A stretch of DNA of 64,000 nt from Thermoproteota archaeon (GTDB lineage Archaea; Korarchaeota; Korarchaeia; Korarchaeales; JAOZGB01), in the NCBI GenBank assembly GCA_037917685.1, contig JAVCBU010000012.1, forward strand, positions 1 to 64,000. The letters are read 5' to 3'. The position numbers were made by a program, and so were the translations under genes. Of this stretch, positions 3,582 through 49,466 are shown in pieces. Numbering within the stretch: position 1 is the stretch's first letter; each line of letters opens with the position of its first letter. The notes below the pieces were generated by a model, which ran no database searches, was not told the DNA's origin, and was given only the letters and a program-made list of their open reading frames with translations.

Positions 3582-3822
3582 ACAAATTTCCCTCCTACAC
3601 TAACGCCAGCCAGAATATAAAAACCAGTTCTCTCATCAAACGAGACTTACCCGCGTAATGTAGTTGAACAATCCTAAAATCCTCAAGAACGTCAACCATA
3701 GGTCGCAGACTCTCGAACCCAAAATTTACAAGTGAAATCTGTACGCTTGCAGGTGATACTTTAGGTATAGAAATATCGCTTCTATCCTTGGCTAAATATT
3801 TCGGCCCCGGGGCTTTGCGGCT

Positions 3823-4998: not shown

Positions 4999-5411
4999 TT
5001 GAACTGTGTTGGAACTTTGCTTGCTGTTAGGACTAGCTCTTTAGCAGCCTTTGCAGATCTTACCACTTTCGGCATATCTCCTGTAAGCTTAAACTTCCGG
5101 GTCATAATCGCTATTATGGGGTCTAGCTGTCCCTTTATCAGTTTCTTCCAGTTGGAATAGGGCCCCTCAAATATGTAGGCTGTTTCCCTCCCCTCTCTAC
5201 TGCCTATCAGCTCTGCCTTCCGGCATTTTCCATGCCACAGGTCGACGTAGAAAACATACTCCCTGTCAAGCTCCTCGTCCGGTGTTACTATGAAAAGGAA
5301 GTCTCCCTCCCAGTTCTTCGCAGCCTCTTCGTAGGCCTTGTTCTCGTTAAGCTTCCTACAGAATTCCTTAACCCACTCATCACTCGGGAACAGGAAGACT
5401 TCACCCATCAT
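4995..5411 (-). CDS. SCP2 sterol/lipid-binding domain protein
   Basis: FPSDEW...LN...WEGDF...G.LDPI.A.M..K.KL.GD pattern; 4-nt overlap with the ADH gene. Confidence 0.85.
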   Translation of the reverse strand: MMGEVFLFPSDEWVKEFCRKLNENKAYEEAAKNWEGDFLFIVTPDEELDREYVFYVDLWHGKCRKAELIGSREGRETAYIFEGPYSNWKKLIKGQLDPIIAIMTRKFKLTGDMPKVVRSAKAAKELVLTASKVPTQFK

Positions 5412-5647
5412 GCTTCACCTTTATGTCCTATCCTCAACTTACATTGATCAATTAAAACTTTCACTATCACTGGTTGGAAGTTGAAATTATTAGCATCAAT
5501 TCAAGGATTGAATATTTTCGCTTCCAAATCGAAACATTTCAGAATATTATGAATGTGGTATGTATGATTAAAATGCTACCATAGTTGATTGTTCATAATT
5601 TGGTCTTCGGTTTACATTAAGATTATTAATATCGTCCACTTCTATGT

Positions 5648-6682
5648 TTGAATGTGGAACACGCTATTATCGGCAGAGGCCTATGGAAAATTTATAGTAG
5701 TAAGGTTAAGCATGGCATACTAAGAAGTGAAAAAAGAAGAGTTGAAGCCCTAAAGGGCGTAGACATAGAAGTACATAGCGGCGAGGTTTACGGCCTACTT
5801 GGGCCCAATGGGGCTGGGAAGACAACCCTTATAAAGATCCTGACAACGCTTCTGTACCCGGATAGAGGCGAAGCCTATGTCAACGGCTACAACGTGCTAA
5901 AGGAGCCTGAGAAGGTTCGAGCATCCATAGGAGTTATGCTTATGGGCGAACGCGCTCTTTACTGGAAACTTACAGGTAGGGAGAACCTTGAATTCTTCTC
6001 AGCGCTATATCATGTACCGCCGTGGGAGGCTAAGAGAAGGATTAAGAGAATATCGGATCTTCTAGGCCTTGAAGAATATATTGATAGGCTGGTTGAATCC
6101 TATAGCTCCGGCCAGAAGATTACACTATCGTTCGCCAAGGCCCTGGTCAATGACGCTCCACTTCTATTTCTTGATGAGCCAACGGTCGCTCTTGACCCTA
6201 GACGTGCCCTAGAGGTTAGAAAAGTTATTAGAACACTCAACAAGGAGGAGGGTAAAACCATCTTCCTGACAACCCACACAATGCAGGAGGCCGACCAGCT
6301 CTGCCATAGGGTTGCGATAATACATGAAGGCAGGATAGTGGCCATCGGCTCACCTGACGAGCTTAAGTCAAGAGTTAAGAAGAAAGGCGTACTTGAGGTT
6401 GAAACAAGTAAAATCAGCCTAGAAGTAGTCGAAAAAATTAGGGGCCTCGAGGGAGTTAGAAGCATGGGTGTGAGTGTTAGAAGAAACGACTCAAAGGAGA
6501 GGTCTCTTCTTAGGATAATTTGTGACAGCCCAAGACAGATAATAGGAAGCGTGATAACAGTACTCATAGAGGAAGGAGCGGATATAAACTACATGAAGCC
6601 CTCAGAGCCAACCCTGGAGGATGTATTCATCATGTACACTGGGAAGGCTTTAGAAGAGGCCGATAAGAATGAGGCTAGGTAA
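5648..6682 (+). CDS. ABC-2 type exporter ATP-binding protein
   Basis: GPNGAGKT, YSSGQ signature, LFLDEPT, H-loop TTH, C-terminal PTLEDVF. Confidence 0.95.
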   Translation: MNVEHAIIGRGLWKIYSSKVKHGILRSEKRRVEALKGVDIEVHSGEVYGLLGPNGAGKTTLIKILTTLLYPDRGEAYVNGYNVLKEPEKVRASIGVMLMGERALYWKLTGRENLEFFSALYHVPPWEAKRRIKRISDLLGLEEYIDRLVESYSSGQKITLSFAKALVNDAPLLFLDEPTVALDPRRALEVRKVIRTLNKEEGKTIFLTTHTMQEADQLCHRVAIIHEGRIVAIGSPDELKSRVKKKGVLEVETSKISLEVVEKIRGLEGVRSMGVSVRRNDSKERSLLRIICDSPRQIIGSVITVLIEEGADINYMKPSEPTLEDVFIMYTGKALEEADKNEAR

Positions 6683-7511
6683 AGTATTCATGGTTCTAAA
6701 GGCGGTTTTCAAGCTGAACTGGTATTTGACATCTAGATATAAGGGCTGGTTCCTCTTCTTTACAGTTTTCCCAGTAATGTTCTCAGTCCTACCTATATTT
6801 CTCGGCAGAGCCGTCGCTGGGGGCTCTGCCAGAGCATCACAGTCCTTCTACCAGTATACTGGAACCGAAAACTATGTTGTGTACATGATCGTAGGCTCAA
6901 GCATCTGGGTCTTCGCCATCTCCTCTCTATGGGGCTTCGGCATGTGGCTCAGGGAACAACAAATGACAGGAACCCTTGAGCAGCTCCTCTTGGCCCCTGT
7001 GAATCCCTTCCTACTCCTAGTAGGTGAAGAAATATTTAACTTACTTCTTTCCGCCGTCCAGTTTACAATAGCTCTTACGATTGGATCGGCCCTCTTTGGG
7101 GCGCTAGGTGAACTTTTAAACTTCAGGCTTCTATACTCCGCCGGGATACTTCTCCTGGGAATGATCCCCATGTACGGCCTTTCAATGGTTTTTGGCGGTG
7201 TAATTATTAAGCTCAAGGAGGCCGGGGCCATAATAGGTATTCTACAGATGGCTTTAGGCTTTCTTATGGGTATATTCTATCCATTGACGCTTCTCCCACT
7301 ATGGGTTAGAATCATATCGGTACTTTTCCCTCTAACAATAGTTAACAATGACATAAGAGCTATACTTCTCTCAACAGAGTACATATTCAGCCTGCCAGGC
7401 GACATCCTTCTGCTGATGATATACATGCTTATATACCCAGTGATAGGTTTCTGGGTGTATGAGAAGGTTATGGTAGGTCTCAAGAGAGGCGAGGGTATTG
7501 GAGGCTACTAG
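6669..7511 (+). CDS. ABC-2 type permease
   Basis: 6 TM helices; EQQMTGTLEQLLLAP; GIFYPL.LLP.W. Confidence 0.9.
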   Translation: MRLGKVFMVLKAVFKLNWYLTSRYKGWFLFFTVFPVMFSVLPIFLGRAVAGGSARASQSFYQYTGTENYVVYMIVGSSIWVFAISSLWGFGMWLREQQMTGTLEQLLLAPVNPFLLLVGEEIFNLLLSAVQFTIALTIGSALFGALGELLNFRLLYSAGILLLGMIPMYGLSMVFGGVIIKLKEAGAIIGILQMALGFLMGIFYPLTLLPLWVRIISVLFPLTIVNNDIRAILLSTEYIFSLPGDILLLMIYMLIYPVIGFWVYEKVMVGLKRGEGIGGY

Positions 7512-8340
7512 ACACCTATATTCGTTCTTGGCCATGGTCAAGAAGGAGTTTAAGATTCTAACAAGGTACCCGTTAAACTTTATTGGAGGCTTCATCCAGG
7601 TCTTCTTCCTGATATTGATGTTCCTATATTCCATGATTCCCTTCTCATCCGGATCTGAAAGTCTATCCAGCGGGCCGGCCCTCCTATGGGGATCCATGTT
7701 TTTCTTCTTCGTCAGCGACTCACTATGGGCAATAGGGACAAGTGTAAGATGGGAGCAGGTCTCCGGCACCCTTGAACAGCTATATCTCACCCCAAGCAAA
7801 CAGTGGCTGATACTCTTGGCTCGAGGTTTGAGAAGCTACCTTGTAGATCTCCCCCTGGTACTCTGGCTTATCCTAGTCGTGTACATGGTAACAGGATACT
7901 TTGAAGCTAAAAACCCCCTGCTTGGAGTATACATTCTACTCCTAAGCATCGCTGGCCTAACAGGGCTAGGCTACGCATATGCAGGCATGGTTCTAGCCCT
8001 AAAGAGGACTGCAAACCTATTTACAAACATGTTTCAGTTCATATTCCTAATATTCTGCGCCATGTTCTTCCCCTTCAAAGCGCTCCCCGAGAAAGTACTA
8101 GCAGTGTCCAGGCTGATACCAATATCCTACATGGTTGACTGTTTTAGATCAGTTATGACAGGCAGCAACCCGGAGCTTATCACCGGAGCAGTTAGGGTAG
8201 TTGGCTTCACCTTCACACCCCTCTTCTTCGAGTTAGTAATCGTCCATCTAATGGCGATAGTCCTGCCAGTAGTAGGGTTTAAACTTTACAACCGGATGAT
8301 TAAGAAGGCTTTAAGGGAAGGGACACTTGGCCAGTACTGA
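7498..8340 (+). CDS. ABC-2 type permease (second)
   Basis: EQVSGTLEQLYLTP; FFPFKALPE; overlaps the previous permease. Confidence 0.9.
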   Translation: MEATRHLYSFLAMVKKEFKILTRYPLNFIGGFIQVFFLILMFLYSMIPFSSGSESLSSGPALLWGSMFFFFVSDSLWAIGTSVRWEQVSGTLEQLYLTPSKQWLILLARGLRSYLVDLPLVLWLILVVYMVTGYFEAKNPLLGVYILLLSIAGLTGLGYAYAGMVLALKRTANLFTNMFQFIFLIFCAMFFPFKALPEKVLAVSRLIPISYMVDCFRSVMTGSNPELITGAVRVVGFTFTPLFFELVIVHLMAIVLPVVGFKLYNRMIKKALREGTLGQY

Positions 8341-8504
8341 ACCCCCATCCTAGACTATATTCATCCCCCATATCTATACTGATATCTTACCTATTTACAT
8401 CCATCGCTTAGTCTTCTCAATTGGAAATGTTATATTTAATTTGTGATGGCAGCATCTGCGTCAATAGAAAAGTATTAATAAAATTCAGCGAGGGTGATGC
8501 TATC

Positions 8505-9221
8505 ATGTTCAGGCTTGTCTTGTTCGACGGGTTCGGAACCCTTTTTGACAGTCGAGGCCTATGGAGGAAGGCCTCGAGGATGGTGTTGGAGAACGTGGGT
8601 TTTAACCCTGAAGAGCTTGTTGACGAATTCATGCTTATCTGGAGTGAGGAGTGGAATAGGATAGTTCTTGAGTCTTCTAAGGGATATTTTAAATCTGGTT
8701 TTGATGTTACTGTGGAAAGCATCATCAACTCACTCTTAAGGGTCGGAGTGGTAAATGGCTTTGACGCTAGGAAGCTTGCCAGGTTGGCTATTCAAATATA
8801 TAAAGACGGTGCAAGGCTGGCTGATGGAGCTGATGAGACTATCGTGTGGCTTAAAAGTAGAGGAATAAAAACAGGGCTGGTTACAGATGCTGACCTCGAC
8901 CTTGCAAGAACAGTTATCGAAAAATTTGGTATTGACGAAAAGATGGATATAGTGCTAATCTCAGATGTCGTAAGGGCGTGGAAGCCTAATCCAAAGGCTG
9001 TTCAAATGGCCTTAGAGAGGCTTGGTGTTGAGCCGGCTGAAACGTTAATGGTTGGAGATAGCTTGTTTGACGTACTCGCAGCAAAGTCCGCGGGGGTTTC
9101 TTCAGCCTGGATTGTTGGGGAGCTTCCTCCTCCAAGTGTGAGGCCAAACTACGTGATAAGAAGAATCATGGAGGTCAAAGAAATAATTCGGGGCCAGGTT
9201 AAAGCGGACATTGACACGTAG
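8505..9221 (+). CDS. HAD-superfamily hydrolase
   Basis: Motif I LFDGFGTL, KPNP, MVGDS..D. Start moved to ATG 8505 after a GGTGA RBS. Confidence 0.9.
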   Translation: MFRLVLFDGFGTLFDSRGLWRKASRMVLENVGFNPEELVDEFMLIWSEEWNRIVLESSKGYFKSGFDVTVESIINSLLRVGVVNGFDARKLARLAIQIYKDGARLADGADETIVWLKSRGIKTGLVTDADLDLARTVIEKFGIDEKMDIVLISDVVRAWKPNPKAVQMALERLGVEPAETLMVGDSLFDVLAAKSAGVSSAWIVGELPPPSVRPNYVIRRIMEVKEIIRGQVKADIDT

Positions 9222-38545: not shown

Positions 38546-39148
38546 TCATTGCTTTTTCCAACGATAGAAAAGAAATATTAGTAGAACTATTAAAATCACT
38601 ATACCCACTTTGTGAACCCATTTCTGAACCCAAACCCAGTTTTCTCCGAGGATTAAGCCAAGGTATGACAGGAAGTAGCACCATATCGCTGAGCCTATGA
38701 AGCTATAGGTGAAGAAGGATGTAAAGTTTACCCTTGCTATTCCGGCCGGTAGGGATATAACAGTCCTAATGGCTGGTAGAAGACGGCTTATGAACAGGGT
38801 CTTTGAGCCATGACGCCTAAGCCATTTGAAAGCTTCTTCTATGTGGCGCCGGCTTACAAGCCTATATTGTACTAGCATGTCTACAGCCTTCTCTCCGTAC
38901 TTATATCCTAGAATGTAGGAAAGCAGAGAGCCAGCCTGACAGCCGAGAGTTCCAGCTATTGCTACGAGGTGGATTTGCATTTCACCTTTGAGGGTGAGGT
39001 ACCCGGCAAAGGGCATCACAATCTCGCTGGGGACAGGCATGCATGCGCTTTCAAGCGTCATGAGCAGGAATACACCTGGATATCCTCCTGCTTCTATCAG
39101 GTTTAGAATTGCATCTATTACCTGTCTGACTATTTCCGGGTATAACAT
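38546..39148 (-). CDS. DedA family membrane protein
   Basis: LES...PVPSE..MP.AG, SRLLP.IR..IS.PAG. Confidence 0.95.
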   Translation of the reverse strand: MLYPEIVRQVIDAILNLIEAGGYPGVFLLMTLESACMPVPSEIVMPFAGYLTLKGEMQIHLVAIAGTLGCQAGSLLSYILGYKYGEKAVDMLVQYRLVSRRHIEEAFKWLRRHGSKTLFISRLLPAIRTVISLPAGIARVNFTSFFTYSFIGSAIWCYFLSYLGLILGENWVWVQKWVHKVGIVILIVLLIFLFYRWKKQ

Positions 39149-39171
39149 CCTCCACTGTTAGAATTGGGACA

Positions 39172-39435
39172 GTGGAGGATTTTAAGATTATGCTGGCCCA
39201 CAGCCTAGAGATAGTAACAAAAGTCAAGGGTAACGTTGACATTCTGCTAACAGGCCACACGCATGGCGGCCAGGTCTGTCTTCCCCTCATAGGGCTGGTC
39301 TACGTGCCTTCAAGGCTTGGAAAGAAATATGTATCAGGCCTCTACAATGCTGGTGGAATAATAGTTTATGTTAACAGGGGTCTAGGTGGAGTTTCATGCC
39401 GGTCAGGGTTAACTGCAGGCCTGAAGTCACGGTGA
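39172..39435 (+). pseudogene. C-terminal fragment of a YkuE-like metallophosphoesterase
   Basis: LAH, GHTHGGQV.LP and YVNRGLG are present but the N-terminal metal-binding motifs are absent. Confidence 0.75.
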
Positions 39436-40107
39436 TAGATTTCTGCTGAAATCTATCTCTACCTTAGCTTTCCCTCCGGCTCTTAGAACCAGGACTAAAA
39501 TGATGAGGGCTATGCTTGCAAGAAGGTATAGGTATGCCCCCGCTTTCAGCCCCCATGACATCTTTCCAAGTTTGAAGCCCATGATCTCGATTACCTCGCC
39601 CCCATATAGAGACAATCCATACTCTTTAAGTTTTGAGGACAATGCAGCTGTGAATAAGGTGAACACGGCTACTCCTACAAGTCCTGATAAAAGATTCACC
39701 TCTTTCCTACCAGTTATCAATGCTATGGCAGACAGCACTAATGGTGTAACTGCAATTATTAAGAACTTATGTAGGGCAGAGTTTAGCTGCTCCAGCTGGG
39801 GAGACTCTTTGAAGGCCTCGCCTAGGTATTCTGTAAGTTGAGCCGCTGCTCCTTTAAGCCCTGAAGGTGATATTGACAATAGTTCCCCAGATAGAAGGGG
39901 AGCATTAATCTTCACACTCCACCAAGGTAAGAAAAGTGATACGGCTAACGATAAAATCAGAATTATAGTTGCCAAATTATGGAGGCTGCTTTGACGCTGG
40001 AGAGTCGGCTCAAATGTGGGTATTAAGCGTTTGCCGCACCTTATGCAGAACTCGGCATGCGGTGGATTTTTATAGCCACAGTGGGGACAAGTAATACTAA
40101 TATCCAT
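39427..40107 (-). CDS. Zinc-ribbon domain membrane protein
   Basis: CPHCG..NP..A.FC..CG followed by 4 TM helices with LPWW. Confidence 0.8.
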   Translation of the reverse strand: MDISITCPHCGYKNPPHAEFCIRCGKRLIPTFEPTLQRQSSLHNLATIILILSLAVSLFLPWWSVKINAPLLSGELLSISPSGLKGAAAQLTEYLGEAFKESPQLEQLNSALHKFLIIAVTPLVLSAIALITGRKEVNLLSGLVGVAVFTLFTAALSSKLKEYGLSLYGGEVIEIMGFKLGKMSWGLKAGAYLYLLASIALIILVLVLRAGGKAKVEIDFSRNLSP

Positions 40108-40384
40108 CTTAGTAATCTGCTATTAGCTCCATTAATAAATTTATGCATCTAACCCGTATTGTTTAAAGTCCATAACTCTATGCCTATGCTACGGAAAGTT
40201 AAGGTTTAAGGTTTAAAGCACACATTTTGGACTGGGGGTATTTTGAAGTATACCACAGATTCTAAGCTTGCATCAAAGCTCGAAGAGCTTTTAGGAGAGA
40301 AAAGGTAGCCGACCAGGAATGTATTCTTCCGTCTTACTCAATGATTTCATTAAATATATTTAGTTTTATCACAGAATAGTTAAA

Positions 40385-40392
40385 TTTATATA
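40385..40392 (+). promoter_or_regulatory. TATA box for the 40415 RNA
   Basis: TTTATATA centred ~26 nt upstream of G40415; no credible plus-strand CDS starts at that point. Confidence 0.6.
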
Positions 40393-40414
40393 GGCTACAG
40401 GTTATCTATTTATT

Positions 40415-40570
40415 GGGCGCCGGAATAGCTGGCTACAAACCCTTGATATAAGCGTACTACAATAAGACGGTTATCCTTAGAACGATGTTATCCGCTGCAG
40501 GCTTGGAACAACATTTTAAGTGGTTCAACCAGCCTGCGGCAGCCTCAGGATGCTTCCGGCGCCCACATCT
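40415..40570 (+). ncRNA. Candidate ~150-nt structured ncRNA (H/ACA-like or tRNA-acceptor mimic)
   Basis: Terminal helix GGGCGCCGGAA/TTCCGGCGCCC; internal 10-bp stem 40494-40503/40531-40540 with a U-G pair; 3' CCCACA; TATA box upstream; T-rich tail. Confidence 0.65.
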
Positions 40571-40837
40571 CTTTATGATAGGATCGCTGGGACAGGTTTC
40601 TAACTGCATGTTTCTTCAGGACTGGAACTTTGAAGTTAATGGCACACAGCACATGCATGCAACGAATATGCATTTCCTATAAGGATGTACAGGCCTATCG
40701 AGTCCTGAATGCGGCTGGTTATAAGATTGTAGGATGTTCAGGTGGTTCCGTGCGTGTTTCAATCTGAATGATATTTAACTGGTAGGGAGGGTTAGGAAAT
40801 TTAATTATTTACCTGTTGGGTTTACTTTGGGTCTAAT

Positions 40838-41091
40838 TTGAGGTGTCTAGTTACTGGTGCCTCCGGATTCATCGGTGGTCATCTTGTGGAGAAGCTTGTC
40901 CGTGACGGACATGAGGTTAGAGCGCTGGTCAGACGGACTAGTAATGTTAGCCTGCTTAGAAATCTTGGTGTAGAACTTGTATACGGGGATATTACAGTCC
41001 CAGAAACATTAAGGCCTGTTGTTAAAGACGTAGATGTGGCATGGAGGACACAGTTAAATGGTATAGGGATAACGGGCTTCTGCAAGGGTGA
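40838..41091 (+). pseudogene. NAD-dependent epimerase/dehydratase with a large internal deletion
   Basis: N-terminal VTGASGFIGGHL...GDIT...VD is fused at ~41037, out of frame, to the family C-terminus GMEDTVKWYRDNGLL. Confidence 0.8.
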
Positions 41092-41097
41092 CGAGAA

Positions 41098-41508
41098 GTG
41101 AGGATTCTCATGTGGCACCTCACAAGTTTCAGGTTCAAACCTAAGAGTAAGGGGAGGACAAGTGTTCTGGGGGAGAAAAGGACTGTTGAAGCTGAGAACT
41201 GCCTTCTAGTCTTCTGCATGGTGGAGAAAAAGGACGCTGAGGGTATCTCAAGCGTTGTCGGAAAGGCTTGCAGGGATATAAGAGAGCAGATGTTAAGAAT
41301 AAAAGTGGATACTGTGGTGTTGCATTCGTTCGCCCACCTGTTCGGAGAACCAGCAAGCCCAGATGTAGCCCTGAAAATTTTAAAGCTGATGGAAGAGATA
41401 CTTCTGCAGGACGGTGTAAAAGTTTTGAAAACGCCTTTCGGATGGTTCGGTGAACTTGAGATTAAGGCTAAAGGTCACCCATTATCGAGAGTGGCGAGGA
41501 AATATTAG
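41098..41508 (+). CDS. Free-standing archaeal-type threonyl-tRNA synthetase editing domain
   Basis: MRIL..H, L.F..VE..D, V.LHSFAHL....A.P, PFGW...E....GHPLSR. Confidence 0.88.
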   Translation: MRILMWHLTSFRFKPKSKGRTSVLGEKRTVEAENCLLVFCMVEKKDAEGISSVVGKACRDIREQMLRIKVDTVVLHSFAHLFGEPASPDVALKILKLMEEILLQDGVKVLKTPFGWFGELEIKAKGHPLSRVARKY

Positions 41509-41844
41509 AATACTACGGATACATTGAGATTCTGTTGATGCTAGGATGCAAAATCCGTACTAAGGGAAGGCTCGACGATGCATCTACGACTGCATGAAAG
41601 ATTAGAGAGGCATTAGGCTTCTAGTTCTTCCCAGCAGAGTAAGCCTAAGCAGCCTGAATCATGGTTGCTCTTGCAAATGTTTCATCGAACGAGACCCCTG
41701 CCATCCTGCTATTGGCGTGCAAATAGACTCCTGAAGGAAAGCCCTAAGAAGAACTCTTCAGGGATCCTTACAAGCTGCAACAGGCACTTGGCGCCTTTGA
41801 CGTGAAATGTTAAAATATAAAAGTTCATCTAGGTCTTGCGGGTT

Positions 41845-42594
41845 ATGGCCGACTTTAGAATAGTCCACATATCAGATGTTCATTTCACATCTCAACATTT
41901 TAGCAGGGAATTATGGGAGAGTACTGTTCGGGCTACGAGAGAGTTTAATCCTGACTTGGTGGTAGTGTCGGGGGATCTAACTGATGATGGCTATCCACAT
42001 GAGTATGAGGTTGCTGTAGACAGGCTTAGAGACCTGTCTGATTTCAGGATGCTCGTAGTACCCGGAAACCACGACTCTAGAAATTATGGCTACACGATTT
42101 TTGAGAGGATATTCAAAACAAGATACCCATTTTTCAAGGGAGACTTCGTTAGAATCGTGGGGGTAGATTCAAGCGAGCCTGATATTGATGACGGACATGT
42201 CGGGCGGCTGGCATATCGTATAGTCTCCGAAAAGCTTGAGGGATTTAAAGGTGTTAAGATTGTTGTTCTCCATCACCATTTAATCCCTATCCCAGGAACC
42301 GGGAGGGAGAGGAACATACCCGTAGATGCCGGCGACTTTCTTGAACTCTTAGATAGGCTTAAGGTTTCCATTGTCCTTTGCGGGCACAAACATGTGCCAT
42401 GGATTTGGAAACTTAACGACATGTATATTGTGAATGCGGGAACTGCTTCAACTTTAAGGCTTAAAGCATACCAGCCACCTTCATTTAACAAGATATGGAT
42501 AGGTAGGGGAGGGCGGTTTAGGATTGTAAGGGTAAATGTTAACACGGGAGATGAGAGGACGGTGCTGGAAGGATTCTTGAAAGCTGACATTTAA
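41845..42594 (+). CDS. Calcineurin-like metallophosphoesterase (CpdA/Icc-like)
   Basis: HISDVH, SGDLTD, PGNHD, HHH, GHKH. Confidence 0.92.
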   Translation: MADFRIVHISDVHFTSQHFSRELWESTVRATREFNPDLVVVSGDLTDDGYPHEYEVAVDRLRDLSDFRMLVVPGNHDSRNYGYTIFERIFKTRYPFFKGDFVRIVGVDSSEPDIDDGHVGRLAYRIVSEKLEGFKGVKIVVLHHHLIPIPGTGRERNIPVDAGDFLELLDRLKVSIVLCGHKHVPWIWKLNDMYIVNAGTASTLRLKAYQPPSFNKIWIGRGGRFRIVRVNVNTGDERTVLEGFLKADI

Positions 42595-42707
42595 CCTGTA
42601 AGGTTGCTCCCTAAATCCATGTTGTATACTGGTTCAACCTTGAGATGCATAGTTGAGCACTGTTAAATTTAAGTAGGGAGAACATAGGATGTCTATGAGG
42701 TGATTTT

Positions 42708-44294
42708 TTGTTTAGGGCTCCACGTGGTATGAGGGATATCGTAGGGGAGGAAATGGATTTTTGGTGTTGGGTTGAAGACACAGTGAGGTGTGTTTTTGAG
42801 AGTTTCGGATATAAGCGGGTTGAAACCCCGATATTTGAGCATTTTGACCTTTTCGCCCTTCGTTCGGGTGAGGAGATTAGAAATAGAATGTTTGTGTTTA
42901 GGATTGATGAGGGGGAGGTCGCCCTTAGACCTGAGATTACGGCGTCGATTGCAAGATTGGTCTCCTCAGGTCTTGAGGGTGCTCTACCCTATAGGCTCTA
43001 CTACATTGGAAGATGCTTCCGATATGAGGAGCCGCAGTCTGGAAGGTATAGAGAGTTCTGGCAGGCGGGTGTTGAGCTTGTGGGAAGCGGTAGACCGGAG
43101 GCTGATGCTGAACTATTAATTCTTGCCTACGAGGTTGCCGAGAACGTCGGGCTTCGAGACTTCAACCTTAAGATTGGCGATATGAGCATTATCAGGGGGT
43201 TACTGGAGGACTTTAATGTGCCGACTGAGGTGCAAAATAGGATAATTACACCGTTGGATAAGCTTTCAAGTAGTACTGACAGGCTTAGGGCGTTTCTCAC
43301 AAAGGTTAGGAGAGAGGGAAAGCTTGACAGCTTGGAGGTTAAAGAGCTTGCTAGGATAGCTGATAGCCTCAGAATGTGGAGGATTAAAGAGGCTGAGAAG
43401 ATTTCAGCCGGGTTATCGAAGATTCCACGTGAGCACTGGGAATTCGTAGAGGAGGATCCAAGAATATATCTTCTTGAGGAGTTAAATAGCCAAGGAAAAA
43501 CCAGGGAGCTCGCGAACTTTATAGCTGATACTATTGAAGGGCTTAGGAAGGCTTTAATGTTGGAATGGGCATATAACGGGGTTGATACTGTTAGTGGAAA
43601 ATACTTTCTGGATCCAAAGGCCTCAAGCATGTTGTTCGACCTGATAGGGATTTCGGGTGCTCCTTCGAAATGTATCTCCAAGGTCGACGCATTGGTAAAG
43701 GATCTGAAGAGGGCAGCAGACTCTGTAGAGAGATTCGAAACGATTATAGAGCTTGTAGAAGAGGCCGAATTAAGGTTTACTGTTGACTTTGGCCTTGCTA
43801 GGGGCTTGGAGTACTATACTGGAATGGTTTTTGAAATCGACTATCCCGGGCTTGGAGCTGAAAAGCAGATCTGCGGTGGAGGCAGGTATGACCAGTTAAT
43901 ACAAGAGTTTGGAGGACGTCCTACCCCAGCTCTAGGATTTGGTTATGGCTTGGACAGGCTCGTGCTTGCAGCCATGGACTCCAATTTAAAACCAGCGGTT
44001 CCAAGTAAAAGGCTTTTCCTAGTCCCTATAAGTCCAGACGTGGCTGGATATGCTCTAAAGGTCGCTAGGATGCTACATCACGTAGTAAATCTAACATTTG
44101 ATCTCAAGATTAGAGGTGTCAGAGAGGGATTATCCTATGCTTCAAAGAAGGGTTACAGGTACGCAGCTATCATTGGCAGGTCTGAAAAGGAATACGGAAA
44201 AGTTACTATCAAGGATCTTCAGAGTGGTATGCAGGAAACTATACCACTTGACGGAGTCATAGACTACTTGGTGTCAAAAGATGAGGAGAATTAA
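42708..44294 (+). CDS. hisS: Histidyl-tRNA synthetase with an enlarged insertion domain
   Basis: PRG.RD, LRPE.T, FRYE.PQ.GRYREF.Q..VE, RGLEYYTG..FE, GGGRYD, GFGYGLDRL and a C-terminal anticodon-binding domain; 528 aa. Confidence 0.9.
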   Translation: MFRAPRGMRDIVGEEMDFWCWVEDTVRCVFESFGYKRVETPIFEHFDLFALRSGEEIRNRMFVFRIDEGEVALRPEITASIARLVSSGLEGALPYRLYYIGRCFRYEEPQSGRYREFWQAGVELVGSGRPEADAELLILAYEVAENVGLRDFNLKIGDMSIIRGLLEDFNVPTEVQNRIITPLDKLSSSTDRLRAFLTKVRREGKLDSLEVKELARIADSLRMWRIKEAEKISAGLSKIPREHWEFVEEDPRIYLLEELNSQGKTRELANFIADTIEGLRKALMLEWAYNGVDTVSGKYFLDPKASSMLFDLIGISGAPSKCISKVDALVKDLKRAADSVERFETIIELVEEAELRFTVDFGLARGLEYYTGMVFEIDYPGLGAEKQICGGGRYDQLIQEFGGRPTPALGFGYGLDRLVLAAMDSNLKPAVPSKRLFLVPISPDVAGYALKVARMLHHVVNLTFDLKIRGVREGLSYASKKGYRYAAIIGRSEKEYGKVTIKDLQSGMQETIPLDGVIDYLVSKDEEN

Positions 44295-45510
44295 CATCTG
44301 CACAGTTGGGTGCAGAGGAACTGGAAAGTCAACCCTTACAGGCAGGCTACTTTTAAGGCTAGGTAGGTTTTCACCAGATGATGTAAATAGATGCATAAGA
44401 ATCGCACAAAAGATAGGTAAAGCAGGCTCGGAATATGCATTTCTAGTGGACAGGCTTCTTGAAGAGAGAATAAAGGGAAGAAGCCTAAAGAGTCATATGG
44501 TTAAAGCCGCTGCCGATGGCAACATACTTAGAATCATAGATACACCAGGCTATCCCCATAATATCGGTGAAACTGTTTTAGCACTTAACATATCGGAGGC
44601 CGTCCTCATCCTTACAAGCTATAAAGAAATCGTGGAGAAAAGCCTCACTCTCAAAGACCTCCTTAGAACCGTATTCATATTCGGTCCTAGGAGAATAATA
44701 CCTGTTATAAATCTTAAAGAGGATATAAATGGAGAAAGATTTATAGAGGCATCCGAAGAGTTTAGAAAGATATTGTTGGATGAGAAACTTCTGAATAGAG
44801 TTGTTTGCGACCCGATTCCCATATCAGCCTATGAAGGCTTAAACCTGTGGAACAAAAATTTGGAATGGTATAAGGGTAACCCTCTACTTGATGTAATCCT
44901 TGATCTCAGAGTATACCCTCTACTTAAGGAACCTGCTAGAGCAATAGTTTACAATGTTACAGGTGAGGCCGGAATACCTCTTGTTCACATGCTTAGAGGA
45001 TCGATTAAGGTGGGGGAAAGAGTCCTCCTCTCCCCAGCATCGATAATAGGGAGGGTAGTGGAAGCTGAATCATGGGGGGAGAGGATTAACACGGTATCTT
45101 GGGGGATGGATGCTGGTTTAAGGCTGGAAGGGATAGCGAGGTACCATATTAAAAGAGGGAACCTCATATCGAAGCTTGAAGGAGCCCCCACGGTTTCAAA
45201 CAAGTTCGAAGCATACATCCACTTGTACCACGGGAAATTAAAACCTGGCATGACATTTGCAGCCCAGATGACATACGAGACAGCTCAGTTTAGAGTACTT
45301 GAAGTTCATAATAGATCTCCCCGGGAAGGCGCCACTACTGAAAGTTTAGAGGGGGAGGCGGCAAGCGTCATAGTTGAAGCTGATAGGGACGTAGCATTTG
45401 ACCCTGTCGGTTACGGGCTGAGGACATGCCGGTTCATGCTTAGAGGAGGCATCCCCGGGCGTCGGGGAAGCTGGGTAATAGGATATGGAGATTTTATAGG
45501 TGGTATATGA
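44281..45510 (+). CDS. Divergent EF-1alpha/EF-Tu paralog (three-domain translational GTPase-like protein)
   Basis: G1 GCRGTGKSTL.GRLL, YAFLVDRL.EER..G, IIDTPG, ISAYEG.N; domain II G.IKVG..V...P...IKRG; domain III PTV...F.A...RF.LR. Confidence 0.8.
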   Translation: MRRINICTVGCRGTGKSTLTGRLLLRLGRFSPDDVNRCIRIAQKIGKAGSEYAFLVDRLLEERIKGRSLKSHMVKAAADGNILRIIDTPGYPHNIGETVLALNISEAVLILTSYKEIVEKSLTLKDLLRTVFIFGPRRIIPVINLKEDINGERFIEASEEFRKILLDEKLLNRVVCDPIPISAYEGLNLWNKNLEWYKGNPLLDVILDLRVYPLLKEPARAIVYNVTGEAGIPLVHMLRGSIKVGERVLLSPASIIGRVVEAESWGERINTVSWGMDAGLRLEGIARYHIKRGNLISKLEGAPTVSNKFEAYIHLYHGKLKPGMTFAAQMTYETAQFRVLEVHNRSPREGATTESLEGEAASVIVEADRDVAFDPVGYGLRTCRFMLRGGIPGRRGSWVIGYGDFIGGI

Positions 45511-46295
45511 TGATTAGGGAGCTTTTTAAATGTGACAAGCCCCTCATTGGGGTAGTTCATCTCGAGCCACTCCCAGGCGCCCCTCTTCACAAGCTTAAGA
45601 TGGACGAAATAATAGAGACAGCGCTAGACGATGCCAAGGCATTGTGTAATGGAGGAGTAGATGGAATAATAATAGAGAACTATGGAGATGCGCCCTACTA
45701 TCCGAGGAGGGTTCCCCCGTTTACGGTAGCAGCTATGGCTATTATAGTGAGGCACGTTGTTAAGGCTGTAGATATACCTGTGGGGGTTAACGTCTTGAGA
45801 AACGATTGGAGGTCATCACTATCTATAGCCCATGTGACAGAAGCGTCGTTCATAAGAGTGAATATTCTCTCTGGAAGTTATATTACTGACCAGGGATACA
45901 TTGAAGGCGAAGCACACCTGCTACAGAGGTTAAAAAGGTATCTTAATAGTAGGGTGAAGGTGTTTGCAGACATCGATGTTAAACATGCCGGGAGGATAGT
46001 TCAAAGGCCGTTAGAGGATGAAGCGAGGGATCTATCCGAGAGGTCTCTCGCCGATGCAATAATAGTTACTGGTGAAGCGACCGGCAAGCCTCCACGGATT
46101 GAAAAGGTGAAGATTGTAAAGGAGGCTGTGGGAGACAAGCCTGTGATTGTTGGCAGCGGGTTGACTCCTGAAAATATAGCCTCGTATCTTCGAATATGCG
46201 ATGGCTTTATAGTGGGAACCTATTTCAAGAGAGGACGAAGAGTAAACATAGAGAAGGTTAAAGCACTAGTCTCTATGGTCAAGCAAAGCTCATAG
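45507..46295 (+). CDS. BtpA/SgcQ family TIM-barrel protein
   Basis: IGVVHL.PLPG.P, IENYGD.PY, GVNVLRND, ADI.VKH, TG..TG, GSG....N, IVGT.FK. Confidence 0.93.
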   Translation: MMIRELFKCDKPLIGVVHLEPLPGAPLHKLKMDEIIETALDDAKALCNGGVDGIIIENYGDAPYYPRRVPPFTVAAMAIIVRHVVKAVDIPVGVNVLRNDWRSSLSIAHVTEASFIRVNILSGSYITDQGYIEGEAHLLQRLKRYLNSRVKVFADIDVKHAGRIVQRPLEDEARDLSERSLADAIIVTGEATGKPPRIEKVKIVKEAVGDKPVIVGSGLTPENIASYLRICDGFIVGTYFKRGRRVNIEKVKALVSMVKQSS

Positions 46296-46361
46296 CTATA
46301 AATACTGGCATTAATCAAGGAATATTAAAATGTAAGTAGGGTTAAATCGTGTGATGAAATT

Positions 46362-46736
46362 ATGACTGAGATGATGCAGATATATAGATGCAACATCTGT
46401 GGAAATATGATAATGGTTTTAAAGGCTGGTGCTGGAACTCTCGTATGCTGCGGTCAGCCGATGGAACTGTTAAAAGAGAAAACCGAGGAGTCAGGTATGG
46501 AAAAACATGTACCGGTTATTGAAAGAAAGGAAAATGTTGCAACAATAAAGGTTGGTTCTATACCTCACCCCATGGAGGAGAACCATTACATCAATTGGAT
46601 AATGGTTACAGATGACAATAGAGTATACATTAGATTCCTAAAGCCTGGTGAAAAACCGGAAGCAGAATTCAAGGTTGATGGTGAAAAAATAGGGGCAAGG
46701 GAGTACTGTAACCTCCACGGCCTTTGGAAGTCATAG
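46362..46736 (+). CDS. dfx: Desulfoferrodoxin (2Fe superoxide reductase)
   Basis: Y.C..CGN...LVCCGQPM, EKHVP, HPMEE.HYI.WI, YCNLHGLW. Confidence 0.97.
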   Translation: MTEMMQIYRCNICGNMIMVLKAGAGTLVCCGQPMELLKEKTEESGMEKHVPVIERKENVATIKVGSIPHPMEENHYINWIMVTDDNRVYIRFLKPGEKPEAEFKVDGEKIGAREYCNLHGLWKS

Positions 46737-46743
46737 CATACTG

Positions 46744-48078
46744 TTATCCTGAGACCTTTACTCCCTTTATTCTTAGGTGTGGGGTTAGTATGTTCCCCAC
46801 TTTTTTAACTTCCCTACCTACCTCATCGACCTTCCGGATTAGGTCTTTCATGTTCCCAGCGATCATAGCCTGCTTCACCGGGCTCTCTATTTCGCCATTC
46901 TTTATGGTGTAGGCTGGCGAGGCCACCACTGAGAATTCCCCTGATGAGATGTTCGCGGTATGTACTCCCATGAGACTTATAACGTAGATGCCGTTCTCTA
47001 TCTCGGAGACAAGCTCCTGGAAGCTTTTCATGCCTGGCTCTACTATGAGGTTCGTCGGGCCGATGGAAGGCTCACTATTATAGTTTCTCCTAGCATTTCC
47101 CGTGCTTTCCTCTCCTGCCTTATTCGCCCAGTAGGTATCGTATAGGTAGTTTTTTAGAATTCCGTTCTCTATTAGAGGCTTTTTCATGGTTGGGTGTCCT
47201 TCGCCGTCGAACGGTGAGGAACTGTAGCCTCCGGTGAGGGTTCCATCATCTATTATTGTAAGCTTCTTGGAGGCGATGGCTTCTCCCTTAAGCCTTGCGA
47301 AAGGTGTTTTCCCCTTATACACATTGTCTCCCGACAGCTCCGGGATAAGTATGCCTTCTAGGATTGATGATACGGCGAATGGATGAAGGATTACTTCCAT
47401 CTCCCTTGTTTCTATAGGCTTTTTACCAAGTTGTGAGAGAGCCATCTCAGCCGCCTCCCTCGCCAGTTTTACATGGTCGAACTCTTTAAGGCTTCTAGAT
47501 GCTTCGAAATCGTAGCCCATCCCTGTTTCACCGTTCTGGGCTGAAATTAGATATATGGAGGCATATATGAAGCTTCCTTTCTCCGATGCTTCCACGCCAT
47601 GGCTGTTTGCAATTGTATATTCTGAGAATCCATATCCAGCCCCGCCGCTTCCAGCTACGATTCTTTTGTCAACCTTAGCATTGTCTATAAGTTCCATGCT
47701 GATTTTCATTGTGTCGTCAGCGTCTAATGATTCTATTTCAGGATCGTATAGGCCCTTAACCTTCGGGAGGGGTTTCGGCTCCGTCATCGAAACCCATGAC
47801 TTGTCCTCAGGCTTCCTGGAAGCTATTCTTAAGGCCTTGTCAATGGCGGCTTCCACCGACTGCATGTCTAGCTTAGTAGCGTAGGCGAACCCTACACGTT
47901 TATTCTTAACCACTCTTACCCCTATACCTGCGTCGTAGCTTTGATTTGCATACTTAACGTTAAGCTTCTCGAAAACTATTGATACGCTTCTACCTGCTGA
48001 AATATATGCTTCAGCTTCATCTGCTCCTTTAATTTCTGCAAGTTTTACAGCCTTAACCGCGAGCTCAACTAGGCTCAT
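46744..48078 (-). CDS. TldE/PmbA family protein
   Basis: FDGEG.P, L.NYLYD, STGNA.R; lacks HExxH. Confidence 0.9.
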   Translation of the reverse strand: MSLVELAVKAVKLAEIKGADEAEAYISAGRSVSIVFEKLNVKYANQSYDAGIGVRVVKNKRVGFAYATKLDMQSVEAAIDKALRIASRKPEDKSWVSMTEPKPLPKVKGLYDPEIESLDADDTMKISMELIDNAKVDKRIVAGSGGAGYGFSEYTIANSHGVEASEKGSFIYASIYLISAQNGETGMGYDFEASRSLKEFDHVKLAREAAEMALSQLGKKPIETREMEVILHPFAVSSILEGILIPELSGDNVYKGKTPFARLKGEAIASKKLTIIDDGTLTGGYSSSPFDGEGHPTMKKPLIENGILKNYLYDTYWANKAGEESTGNARRNYNSEPSIGPTNLIVEPGMKSFQELVSEIENGIYVISLMGVHTANISSGEFSVVASPAYTIKNGEIESPVKQAMIAGNMKDLIRKVDEVGREVKKVGNILTPHLRIKGVKVSG

Positions 48079-49466
48079 GCTCTACCACCTACCACAACAT
48101 TTCTTATACGAACATGGGGGCCTCCGTCACCGACTGGGATGGCTTGGCCGTCTTTTCCACAGAATCCTACGTCTAGACTTAAGTCTTTGCCCACGGCGTC
48201 AACGTTCTTAAGGGTTTCAAGGATTACCCCGCTAAGTGAGACATCCAGTAATGGTTTAGTGATTTCACCCTTCTCTATAAGGTAGGCTTCCTGAGCGTTA
48301 AACTGAAACCCTCCAACAGCGGGATTAACCTGGCCACCCCTGCTTCCCTTAACGTACACTCCAAGCTCTATGTCTTCGAGAAGTTCTTCGAAGTTGTAGT
48401 CGCCTGGGGCTATATATGTATTGCTCATTCTTACTATAGGCTTATGTTTGAAGGTCATAGCCCTTGCTGAGCCGTTTGGTTTCATCCCAAGTTTTGCGGC
48501 GGACTCTCGGTTAAGCATGTAGCCGACGAGTACCCCCCTATCTATTAGTTTCCTTTTCTGCGTTTTAACGCCTTCATCATCGTATTTTTCGGATCCCCAC
48601 CAGTCAATTGTGGAGTCATCATATATTGTTACGAGGTCTGAGCCTATTTTCTCTCCGAGCTTGCCAGCAAGCACAGATTCGCCAGCTATTACAAGATCTG
48701 CCTCGCAAGCGTGTCCAACCGCCTCATGGGCGAAGACACCTATATGTTCAGGGTCTGCTATGACCGTGTATCTCCCACCCTTAACAGGAACGGCCTTCAG
48801 GAGGTTGCAAGCCTTCCTTGCCGCCTCTAAAGCCTTTTCCAGGGGTTTTTGAGACTCGAAGCCCTCATATCCACCGTAGTGTGCAATTCTCGTTATAAAT
48901 GATTGTATCTTGCCGTTCTCACTTGCAACGGCGTTAAAAGATGAGTAGCATCTCGAGAATTCCCATTCTATGTAGCTGCCAAGACTACTGTAAAAGACTT
49001 TTCTACCATACCACTCCGTATAGGTTACTTCACCCGTCTTTACCCTGGGGTCGAAGTTTCTCATTCTCCTGTCGGCTTCCAGCGCCAATTCTAGTTTTTC
49101 ATCAACAGGTATGTCTGAGAGCTTCTTCTTGCCAAGCTTAACGATTCTATCTTCCACAGCCTCTACGTCGACAAGTTTGACTTTTTCCTTTGTCCTATCA
49201 CCCACCGATTTAGCAACTTTAACAGCGAATTCAACAGCGTCCAGAAGTCTTTCCTTATCAAGCTTTGTGGATGTAGAGAACCCCCATGACCCGTTAGATA
49301 GTACTGTTATTCCAGCTCCCACGCTATATCCAATAGGAGACTTCTCAACAACACCGTTGCTTATCTTAAGCCTCACGGTATCTACGAGTTCAATCCTTAT
49401 GTCCGCGTATTCTGCACCCATCTCAAGGGCCTTCTCAACAACGAACACTGCCAGATCCTTCATCAA
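48075..49466 (-). CDS. tldD: TldD family metalloprotease
   Basis: HEAVGH..E.D, YDDEG, RMSNTYI.PG, CGKDGQ..PV..GGPH. Confidence 0.93.
   Translation of the reverse strand: MMKDLAVFVVEKALEMGAEYADIRIELVDTVRLKISNGVVEKSPIGYSVGAGITVLSNGSWGFSTSTKLDKERLLDAVEFAVKVAKSVGDRTKEKVKLVDVEAVEDRIVKLGKKKLSDIPVDEKLELALEADRRMRNFDPRVKTGEVTYTEWYGRKVFYSSLGSYIEWEFSRCYSSFNAVASENGKIQSFITRIAHYGGYEGFESQKPLEKALEAARKACNLLKAVPVKGGRYTVIADPEHIGVFAHEAVGHACEADLVIAGESVLAGKLGEKIGSDLVTIYDDSTIDWWGSEKYDDEGVKTQKRKLIDRGVLVGYMLNRESAAKLGMKPNGSARAMTFKHKPIVRMSNTYIAPGDYNFEELLEDIELGVYVKGSRGGQVNPAVGGFQFNAQEAYLIEKGEITKPLLDVSLSGVILETLKNVDAVGKDLSLDVGFCGKDGQAIPVGDGGPHVRIRNVVVGGRA

What the first reader, a model, noticed from the sequence alone, without database searches (positions are those of the whole stretch)
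42708..46295. Coupled HisRS(+insertion) / degenerate EF-1alpha / BtpA operon: candidate non-canonical aminoacyl-RNA delivery system
Seen: three overlapping genes (14-nt and 4-nt overlaps). The HisRS keeps all His/ATP motifs but is 528 aa. The second gene has all three EF-1alpha domains in diverged form. The third is BtpA. Established: housekeeping aEF-1alpha is highly conserved and normally lies with rps10/fusA; dedicated EF paralogs (SelB) and dedicated synthetases (PylRS) mark specialised decoding, and aaRS paralogs also feed non-ribosomal chemistry. Inference: the aaRS and EF-like protein form a module that charges and carries His on a special tRNA or tRNA-like RNA for recoding, quality control or tRNA-dependent biosynthesis, with BtpA as a tailoring enzyme. 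I know of no described system with this layout.
Basis: partly seen in the sequence, partly recalled or inferred. Interest (0 to 1): 0.85.

Follow-up and report, generated by a model that had tools for sequence, protein, structure and literature searches.

The report
HisRS paired with degenerate EF-1alpha paralog
The genome's only histidyl-tRNA synthetase carries an extra helical domain and is always partnered with a diverged, mostly GTPase-dead copy of elongation factor 1-alpha, a conserved and apparently undescribed pairing whose function is still untested.

Summary
hisS (42708-44294), an EF-1alpha-like gene (44281-45510) and btpA (45507-46295) overlap by 14 and 4 nt.

The hisS/EF-like pair is a conserved module; BtpA is not part of it.
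- The HisRS is the genome's only one. Its insertion domain is about 110-125 aa larger than usual.
- In metagenome contigs, 19 of 19 assessable long-insert hisS genes are followed directly by an EF-like gene, against 0 of 42 short hisS genes.
- In the window's own phylum, the paralog occurs in exactly the 3 genomes that have the long HisRS.
- Four Bathyarchaeia MAGs and one Latescibacterota chromosome carry the same pair. Two further genomes keep both genes unlinked.
- With insert columns removed, long HisRSs form one clan (SH-aLRT 96).
- EF-like genes are under purifying selection (dN/dS 0.14-0.21).
- Most have lost the catalytic His. All remodel the aminoacyl pocket (Asn to Asp in all, Asp to Arg in most) but keep the P-loop.

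My reading is an EF1A-derived accessory subunit docking on the enlarged, CCA-proximal insertion domain. Binding is untested because the complex predictor was unavailable. A special tRNA or recoding role has no support. I found no published description.

The parts
42697..42703 (+). Shine-Dalgarno-like GAGGTGA 4 nt upstream of the hisS TTG start
   Evidence: Read from the sequence.
42708..44294 (+). hisS: the genome's only histidyl-tRNA synthetase, 528 aa, of the long-insert type
   Evidence: TIGR00442 scores 357.5 bits, above its cut-off. Pfam finds tRNA-synt_His and HGTP_anticodon. It is the only hisS in G000. It belongs to the long-HisRS clan.
43224..43763 (+). Enlarged all-helical insertion domain of HisRS (aa 173-352). 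About 110-125 aa (roughly aa 200-325) have no counterpart in short HisRSs.
   Evidence: Alignment with short HisRSs. AF2 gives helices 173-352 at pLDDT above 90. No Pfam family matches it and no PDB relative was found. Solved HisRSs are 357-448 aa.
44281..45510 (+). hisS-linked EF-1alpha paralog, 409 aa. P-loop GCRGTGKS and DTPG are kept, the catalytic His is replaced by Tyr, and NKxD is lost (NLKED).
   Evidence: Family scores. Motifs. AF2 model and Foldseek. Relatives and their contexts.
45507..46295 (+). btpA (BtpA/SgcQ TIM-barrel family). It is coupled by an ATGA overlap in this genome only and is not a conserved member of the module.
   Evidence: PF03437 scores 304 bits. The overlap was read. 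No BtpA homologue was found in 0 of 80 and 0 of 80 related loci.

Best explanation
This is a two-gene module, not three. The housekeeping HisRS has acquired an enlarged helical insertion domain. It is co-inherited and translationally coupled with a dedicated paralog of aEF1A.

My reading of how it works:
- The paralog is an accessory subunit of HisRS.
- It sits in a closed, NTP-bound, EF1A-GTP-like shape on the enlarged insertion domain. In solved HisRS-tRNA complexes this domain clamps the acceptor end.
- There it engages the 3' end of tRNAHis or His-tRNAHis, to speed charging or release, or to shield and hand over the product.
- It does not act as a ribosome-activated GTPase in most lineages.

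What is shown: conservation of the pair, co-occurrence with the insertion, sole-copy status of the HisRS, purifying selection, loss of the catalytic His, and a remodelled aminoacyl pocket.

What is inferred: the physical complex, the docking site, and tRNA 3'-end binding.

My odds: about 0.85 that this is a functional module, about 0.6 that the two proteins form a physical complex, and about 0.35-0.4 that the paralog handles the tRNA 3' end. The figure given is a blend.
For: Adjacency:
- In metagenome contigs fetched with a HisRS alignment, 19 of 19 assessable long hisS genes have an EF-like ORF starting at or beside the hisS stop. Among short hisS genes the count is 0 of 42. The other 19 of 80 loci could not be assessed.
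- Among 80 EF1A-like loci from species genomes, 5 have hisS directly upstream. These are the four best matches to the query profile (Bathyarchaeia) and L072 (Latescibacterota). The other 75 have none within the flanks.

Own phylum (43 genomes):
- The paralog is present only in G000, G038 and G039.
- These are exactly the 3 genomes with a long HisRS. The 37 other genomes in which a hisS was detected have short ones; in 3 genomes no hisS was found.

Unlinked cases:
- G339 and G363 have a long HisRS with no adjacent EF-like gene.
- Each nevertheless keeps a 370-aa EF-like paralog elsewhere in the genome.

Phylogeny:
- With insert columns removed, the 22 long HisRSs form one side of a branch (SH-aLRT 96). 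Their sister group is two short HisRSs that lack the partner.
- The same subgroups appear in the EF-like tree.

Selection: at dS about 0.5-0.6, dN/dS is 0.14-0.21 for the EF-like genes and 0.11-0.15 for hisS.

Sole HisRS: G000, G043 and G044-G047.

Residues:
- The P-loop G/K, DxPG and the GxDxG Asp are invariant in 27 of 27 sequences.
- At the positions matching the EF-Tu pocket residues Asp227 and Asn285, the family has Arg in most members and Asp in all. The Glu271 equivalent, which lines the pocket holding the tRNA 3' end, is mostly kept (residue roles from passages of PMC4329189).

Structural logic: the HisRS insertion domain contacts C72-A76 and clamps the acceptor stem in the T. thermophilus complex (passages of PMC4357726).

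Precedent: archaeal EF-1alpha binds LeuRS and raises its kcat about 8-fold (abstract of PMC2094089).
Against: - No direct evidence of binding exists. The complex predictor was unavailable.
- The insertion and the partner arose on one branch. Their co-occurrence is largely one evolutionary event plus co-inheritance.
- The window's own copy is the most degenerate. The pocket Arg is replaced by Asn, NKxD is lost, and it sits on a very long branch (stem 1.84).
- The short forms (334-370 aa) have lost parts of the G domain and of domain III.
- The ladder-like EF tree may be shaped by long-branch attraction.
- My mapping of pocket residues onto aEF1A rests on motif correspondence with a T. aquaticus sequence that I recalled and did not fetch.
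- For the window's own lineage I had no DNA of relatives. The only evidence there is protein identity of 82-83% with intact length.
Confidence: 0.5

Rival explanations
1. Nucleotide-sensing regulatory subunit. The EF-like protein couples NTP binding or hydrolysis, or the cell's GTP level, to the adenylate-forming step of HisRS. This is how the EF1A-derived GTPase CysN drives the adenylyl-transferase CysD. No tRNA is bound.
For: The P-loop and DxPG are invariant in 27 of 27 family members. Basal members (L072, L174-L177, L170) keep intact GHxxxGKS, DxPGH and NKMD motifs. The genome also holds a true CysN beside a CysD-like gene, which shows the precedent of an EF1A relative serving an adenylating enzyme. 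The discussion of PMC4357726 proposes adenylate synthesis as the rate-limiting step for HisRS.
Against: The catalytic His is lost in most archaeal members, and in this window NKxD is lost too. The most conserved and most specifically changed part of the family is the domain II pocket that binds the aminoacyl end in EF-Tu. This model does not need that feature.
Confidence: 0.2
2. No direct partnership. The paralog has a function of its own, for example a specialised partner of aPelota or aRF1, or a stress factor. It travels with this hisS clade only through operon inertia.
For: Insert and partner trace to a single branch. The AF2 model is closest to aEF1A as bound to aRF1 and aPelota. In 2 genomes the genes are unlinked.
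Against: The pair moves together across phyla and into a bacterium. The stop/start overlap is conserved. Both genes are retained after unlinking. No family member above the canonical score range was seen in sampled genomes lacking the long HisRS. That test was only partial.
Confidence: 0.15
3. The module is a non-canonical system that charges a special tRNA or tRNA-like RNA with His and delivers it for recoding or tRNA-dependent biosynthesis, with BtpA as a tailoring enzyme.
For: The aminoacyl pocket is remodelled in a family-specific way, as in dedicated factors such as SelB. Histidine-related genes recur nearby: aromatic amino acid lyases in L063-L066, Thg1 and AspRS in L166-L169, and hisG-hisD in L072.
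Against: It is the only HisRS in every genome checked. BtpA was found in 0 of 160 related loci. No RNA family matches at the locus. Without the catalytic His, the derived forms are unlikely to be released on the ribosome.
Confidence: 0.07

Closest known systems
LeuRS:EF-1alpha (multi-synthetase) complex of Methanothermobacter thermautotrophicus (PMC2094089, abstract read)
   Same: An archaeal EF1A-type protein associates with an aminoacyl-tRNA synthetase. It raises the synthetase's kcat and is proposed to channel aa-tRNA.
   Different: There the housekeeping EF-1alpha is used and the genes are unlinked. Here a separate, diverged paralog is genetically coupled to one synthetase that carries a matching extra domain. 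Binding is not shown here.
SelB / aSelBL (dedicated EF paralogs; PMC3037878 listing only, PMC4329189 passages)
   Same: An EF-Tu/EF1A-family paralog with an altered aminoacyl pocket, present alongside the general factor.
   Different: P0002 scores 28 bits on the selB model, whose cut-off is 242. It has no C-terminal extension, branches from aEF1A rather than from SelB, and has lost the catalytic His. No special tRNA or recoding signal is known.
CysN-CysD sulfate adenylyltransferase
   Same: An EF1A-derived GTPase serves as a subunit of an adenylate-forming enzyme. A real CysN/CysD pair is present in this same genome.
   Different: P0002 scores 78 bits on the CysN model, whose cut-off is 336. 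It falls in a separate clade. Its partner is a class II aaRS, and hydrolysis is probably lost.
HisZ-HisG (a HisRS paralog as regulatory subunit)
   Same: A HisRS-family protein takes part in a two-protein assembly linked to histidine metabolism. In L072 the module sits directly upstream of hisG-hisD.
   Different: P0001 is a complete HisRS with an anticodon-binding domain. It passes the hisS cut-off and falls below the hisZ cut-off (255 against 271.65).

Membership tests
Histidine--tRNA ligase (TIGR00442) | Score above the curated equivalog cut-off | tested here: met
   357.5 bits against 286.75.
Histidine--tRNA ligase (TIGR00442) | Class II core with HisRS-specific motifs, plus a C-terminal anticodon-binding domain | tested here: met
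   Pfam finds tRNA-synt_His and HGTP_anticodon. RPE.TA, RYREF, GGGRYD and G.G.DR are invariant in the alignments. The motif names are recalled.
Histidine--tRNA ligase (TIGR00442) | Serves as the cell's HisRS (no second copy) | tested here: met
   It is the only match above cut-off in G000, which is 95% complete.
Archaeal EF-1alpha (TIGR00483 / NF008969) | Score above the curated cut-off | tested here: not met
   126.8 and 130.5 bits against 540.1 and 502. The genome's canonical copy scores 653. All six other hisS-linked members tested also fall below the cut-off, at 110-478 bits.
Archaeal EF-1alpha (TIGR00483 / NF008969) | Intact GTPase motifs, including the catalytic His after DxxG and NKxD | tested here: not met
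   DTPGY and NLKED replace them. The P-loop is kept.
Archaeal EF-1alpha (TIGR00483 / NF008969) | Three-domain EF-Tu fold | tested here: met
   AF2 pTM 0.89. TM 0.89-0.90 to 3VMF and 3WXM.
Archaeal EF-1alpha (TIGR00483 / NF008969) | Location in the str-type ribosomal protein cluster | tested here: not met
   The canonical copy lies in an S12-S7-aEF1A-S10 cluster on C6. This copy follows hisS.
CysN (TIGR02034) | Score above the cut-off and a CysD neighbour | tested here: not met
   78.3 bits against 336.1. The CysD-like gene lies beside P0029 on C18, not here.
SelB (TIGR00475) | Score above the cut-off and a C-terminal winged-helix extension | tested here: not met
   28.4 bits against 242.25. 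The protein ends after domain III at 409 aa.
HisZ (TIGR00443) | Score above the cut-off and no anticodon-binding domain | tested here: not met
   255.1 bits against 271.65. An HGTP_anticodon domain is present.
aaRS:EF-1alpha channeling complex | Physical binding of the two proteins, with an effect on aminoacylation | not testable with these tools
BtpA/SgcQ (PF03437) | Pfam gathering score | tested here: met
   304 bits against 30.

The most novel reading that the evidence does not exclude
An undescribed subfamily of EF1-family translational GTPases has become an obligate, largely hydrolysis-dead subunit of histidyl-tRNA synthetase. It docks on a co-evolved insertion domain and takes charge of the 3' end of His-tRNAHis, by shielding, hand-off or diversion. 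The pair spreads between archaeal phyla and into bacteria as a two-gene cassette that replaces the resident HisRS.
Probability: 0.35. Interest if true: 0.85.

Novelty: new variant of a known kind. Interest (0 to 1): 0.75.

Why it matters
Dedicated elongation-factor paralogs such as SelB, and synthetase:EF1A complexes, are each known separately. I did not find in print an EF1A paralog hard-wired to one ordinary synthetase that has grown a matching domain.

If the two proteins bind, this would be a natural and genetically tractable case of aa-tRNA hand-off, or of synthetase activation, by an EF-like subunit. It would also be a case of a translational GTPase losing hydrolysis while keeping a ligand pocket.

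The family additionally marks a HisRS cassette that has moved between archaeal phyla and into a bacterium. It would add a subfamily to the catalogue of archaeal trGTPases, which in the 2015 survey listed only aEF1A, aGTPBP, aIF2g, aSelB, aSelBL, aEF2 and aIF5B.

Tried and rejected
- **Complex prediction.** Complex prediction for HisRS plus EF-like was not available, so no binding test was made.
- **tRNAHis.** ARAGORN with and without introns and RF00005 (37 matches) found no tRNA-His gene in G000. The tRNA set is plainly incomplete, so this says nothing either way.
- **RNA families.** Rfam over 39000-47500 gave only one chance-level match.
- **Expression.** No RNA holder was listed among the sequencing runs.
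- **Close relatives.** The search for related loci with P0002 alone found no relative in genome contigs.
- **ESM Atlas.** It does not hold P0002. For P0031 it returned only generic EF1A and CysN clusters.
- **Insertion domain.** It has no Pfam family and no PDB relative at E below 0.05.
- **Converse co-occurrence test.** I searched a 401-genome sample with profile A2 at E <= 1e-112. The result was only partly clean. Canonical aEF1As reach that range, and weak paralogs such as that of G363 fall below it. It shows only that the three hits that score above the canonical copies (two of them with short frames) are all in long-HisRS genomes.
- **G001 (same genus).** It lacks both hisS and the paralog, but it is 66% complete, so the absence is uninformative.
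- **Hadarchaeota second EF1A copies (L069, L076).** I considered them as members and rejected them. They branch inside the canonical clade and are not hisS-linked.
- **aEF2 genes about 2 kb from some short hisS genes.** These are unrelated.
- **dN/dS for pairs with dS above 1.** I regard these as saturated.
- **Supplementary files.** None were consulted. They might list further trGTPase subfamilies.
Full report
**1. Observation**

The window holds three same-strand ORFs at 42708-44294, 44281-45510 and 45507-46295. Read directly, the second gene's ATG lies 14 nt before the end of the hisS stop codon. The third gene's ATG overlaps the second gene's TGA in an ATGA. Each start is preceded by an SD-like GGTG-type motif.

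- Gene 1 is a full HisRS. TIGR00442 scores 357.5 bits against a cut-off of 286.75. It has an anticodon-binding domain, and its model match is split by an insert.
- Gene 2 matches the EF-1alpha models at only 127-130 bits, against cut-offs of 540 and 502. It scores lower still on CysN, SelB and EF-Tu.
- The AF2 model of gene 2 (pLDDT 89, pTM 0.89) has the G domain and both beta-barrels. It superposes on GTP-form A. pernix aEF1A at TM 0.89-0.90, and on GDP forms at about 0.46.
- Gene 3 is BtpA (304 bits).

**2. Genome inventory**

G000 has 1.81 Mb in 22 contigs and is 95% complete.

- It has one hisS only.
- It has a canonical aEF1A (653 bits) inside an S12-S7-aEF1A-S10 cluster.
- It has a CysN-like protein with intact motifs beside a CysD-like PAPS-reductase-family gene.
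- It has an aGTPBP-like 551-aa protein.

The hisS-linked gene is therefore a supernumerary EF1-family paralog.

Its P-loop (GCRGTGKS) and DTPG are intact. The residue after DxxG is Tyr instead of the catalytic His, and NKxD reads NLKED.

**3. Relatives of the EF-like protein**

- The word-indexed search found two proteins at 82-83% identity and nothing else above 28%.
- A full HMMER scan of 1.84 billion representatives gave one close hit and 4 hits below 1e-30.
- In a FastTree of 179 sequences, the query trio falls in a 14-row clade (SH-like 98). That clade is apart from the genome's canonical aEF1A and from its CysN-like protein.

**4. The pair is conserved**

*Own phylum.* In the 43 species genomes of the window's phylum, the paralog occurs only in G000, G038 and G039. 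In G038 and G039 it again starts at the stop of hisS.

*Species genomes.* A scan with a profile of the clade returned 80 loci. hisS lies directly upstream in 5 of them. These are the four best matches to the query profile (four MAGs titled Bathyarchaeia or Bathyarchaeota) and L072 (one complete chromosome titled Latescibacterota). It lies upstream in 0 of the other 75.

*Independent query.* I then searched metagenome contigs with a HisRS alignment, which returned 80 loci.
- Among loci with a full-length hisS and at least 200 nt downstream, 19 of 19 long hisS genes are followed at once by an EF-like ORF.
- None of 42 short hisS genes is.
- 19 loci were not assessable.
- Two of the 19 duplicate material I already had. 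L164 is the contig of L064. The EF-like protein of L163 is identical to that of G039.

*Spacing.* Stop/start overlaps or gaps of a few nucleotides recur throughout.

*BtpA.* A BtpA homologue was found in none of the 160 loci.

**5. The HisRS insertion goes with the partner**

- HisRSs without a partner have frames of 407-496 aa. They align to P0001 only over about 3-190 and 310-522.
- Those with a partner are 494-552 aa and align throughout.
- In the AF2 model the insertion domain (aa 173-352) is all-helical with pLDDT above 90.
- It matches no Pfam family and no PDB sequence. All solved HisRSs found by Foldseek are 357-448 aa.
- In an IQ-TREE analysis of 51 HisRSs with the insert columns removed, the 22 long HisRSs form one side of a branch (SH-aLRT 96). 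Their sister is a pair of short HisRSs without a partner.
- The subgroups match those of the EF-like tree.

Insert and partner thus trace to the same branch. That is essentially one event, so on its own it does not prove coupling.

Additional support:
- The cassette is present as a unit in distant hosts.
- It is the sole HisRS in the Latescibacterota chromosome and in four Bathyarchaeia MAGs.
- In a 401-genome sample of that archaeal phylum, 4 genomes have the insertion. Two of them have an adjacent EF-like gene.
- The other two have a convergent unknown ORF after hisS, yet each keeps a 370-aa EF-like paralog elsewhere, between a DUF763 gene and a xylose-isomerase-like gene.

**6. State of the EF-like family**

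Rooted on the 37-row canonical clade (SH-aLRT 99), the hisS-linked sequences form a ladder. A single origin is not excluded, but long-branch effects are possible.

- Basal members (L072, L174-L177, L170) keep GHxxxGKS, DxPGH and NKMD.
- The Bathyarchaeia types have DVPG[MVI] or DLPGL.
- The G038 type has DTPGL and SKMD.
- A short type (334-370 aa) has DTPG[SDL] and deletions.
- G000 is the most derived.
- None of the seven members tested (P0002 and six others) reaches the curated EF-1alpha cut-off. Scores range from 110 to 478 bits against 502.

The family is not decaying.
- For pairs with dS of 0.52-0.58, dN/dS is 0.14-0.21.
- The adjacent hisS genes give 0.11-0.15.
- For the window's own lineage I had only protein comparisons.

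The P-loop Gly/Lys, DxPG and a GxDxG Asp are invariant in 27 of 27 sequences.

**7. Pocket**

Passages of PMC4329189 state two things about T. aquaticus EF-Tu.
- The aminoacyl pocket is formed by His67, Glu226, Asp227, Phe229, Thr239 and Asn285.
- The tRNA 3' end lies in a pocket that includes Glu271.

I matched the motifs VEDVF, VEMH and GDNVG to the aEF1A motifs IQDVY, IEMHH and GDNIG. The T. aquaticus sequence was recalled, not fetched. The spacing of 14 residues between Glu271 and Asn285 agrees.

On that mapping:
- The Asn285 equivalent is Asp in all 23 rows of that alignment outside the canonical and CysN-like groups. Of these, 17 come from hisS-linked loci or the two genomes so identified. 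The gene context of the other 6 (P0133, P0149, P0034, P0036 and P0052, P0061, P0044 in part) is unknown.
- The Asp227 equivalent is Arg in 16 of the 23 and Lys in 2 more. It is Asn in the query.
- The Glu271 equivalent is kept in most rows.

This is a family-wide, specific remodelling of the site that holds the aminoacyl end. It is already present in the members with intact GTPase motifs.

**8. Mechanism**

In the T. thermophilus HisRS-tRNAHis complex the 57-aa insertion domain contacts C72-A76 and clamps the acceptor stem (PMC4357726 passages). A domain three times larger at that site, gained together with an EF1A-like protein whose aminoacyl/CCA pocket is conserved but altered, fits a subunit positioned at the acceptor end.

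A known precedent is archaeal EF-1alpha binding LeuRS and raising its kcat about 8-fold (PMC2094089 abstract).

Loss of the catalytic His argues against ribosome-triggered release in the derived forms. The enzyme is the only HisRS, so the module must serve normal translation.

I could not test binding.

**9. Context**

Histidine- and tRNAHis-related neighbours recur.
- Aromatic amino acid lyase genes flank the module in L063, L064 and L065/L066.
- AspRS and Thg1 lie near it in L166-L169.
- hisG-hisD follow it in L072.

These may simply reflect the presence of hisS.

**10. Novelty**

- The 2015 trGTPase survey lists no such archaeal subfamily (PMC4342817, passages read).
- Four full-text searches found no description.
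- Supplements were not seen.

I rate this as a new variant of known kinds (dedicated EF paralogs, and aaRS:EF1A association). Function is unproven.

Noticed in passing
window 41098-41508 (+): A free-standing 136-aa protein made only of the archaea-specific ThrRS editing domain (PF08915, 131 bits). It lies two genes upstream of hisS and is followed by a metallophosphoesterase at 41836-42594.
   Followed up: no
L072 (record titled Latescibacterota bacterium, complete chromosome), 3430-8663: A bacterial chromosome carries the long HisRS and an EF1A-like partner with intact GTPase motifs as its only hisS. hisG and hisD follow directly, and an outer-membrane beta-barrel gene lies upstream. This looks like transfer of the cassette into a bacterium.
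   Followed up: partly
L166-L169: In the short-EF-like subgroup, an AspRS and a Thg1 (tRNAHis guanylyltransferase) gene lie next to the module in all four contigs.
   Followed up: partly
L063 5595-7163, L064 5727-7322, L065 1674-3224: An aromatic amino acid lyase gene (the family that includes histidine ammonia-lyase) lies beside the module in Bathyarchaeia loci, in two different arrangements.
   Followed up: no
L069 and L076 (Hadarchaeota records): A second, near-canonical aEF1A copy is preceded, with a 4-nt overlap, by a 301-331 aa ORF with no Pfam family, and is followed by an Lhr-type helicase. It is not hisS-linked.
   Followed up: partly
G000 C18:18511-19695 (L007): A CysN-like EF1A relative with intact motifs lies beside a CysD-like PAPS-reductase-family gene. 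This is a probable sulfate adenylyltransferase in the archaeon.
   Followed up: partly
G000 whole genome: Only 37 tRNA matches were found and no tRNA-His gene was detected. Many tRNAs carry introns and most lie on contig C6.
   Followed up: partly
window 46362-49466: A desulfoferrodoxin gene is followed, on the opposite strand, by a TldD/PmbA metallopeptidase pair.
   Followed up: no
L247 and L248 (G339, G363): Where the EF-like gene is unlinked from hisS, it sits in both genomes between a DUF763 gene and a xylose-isomerase-like TIM-barrel gene.
   Followed up: no
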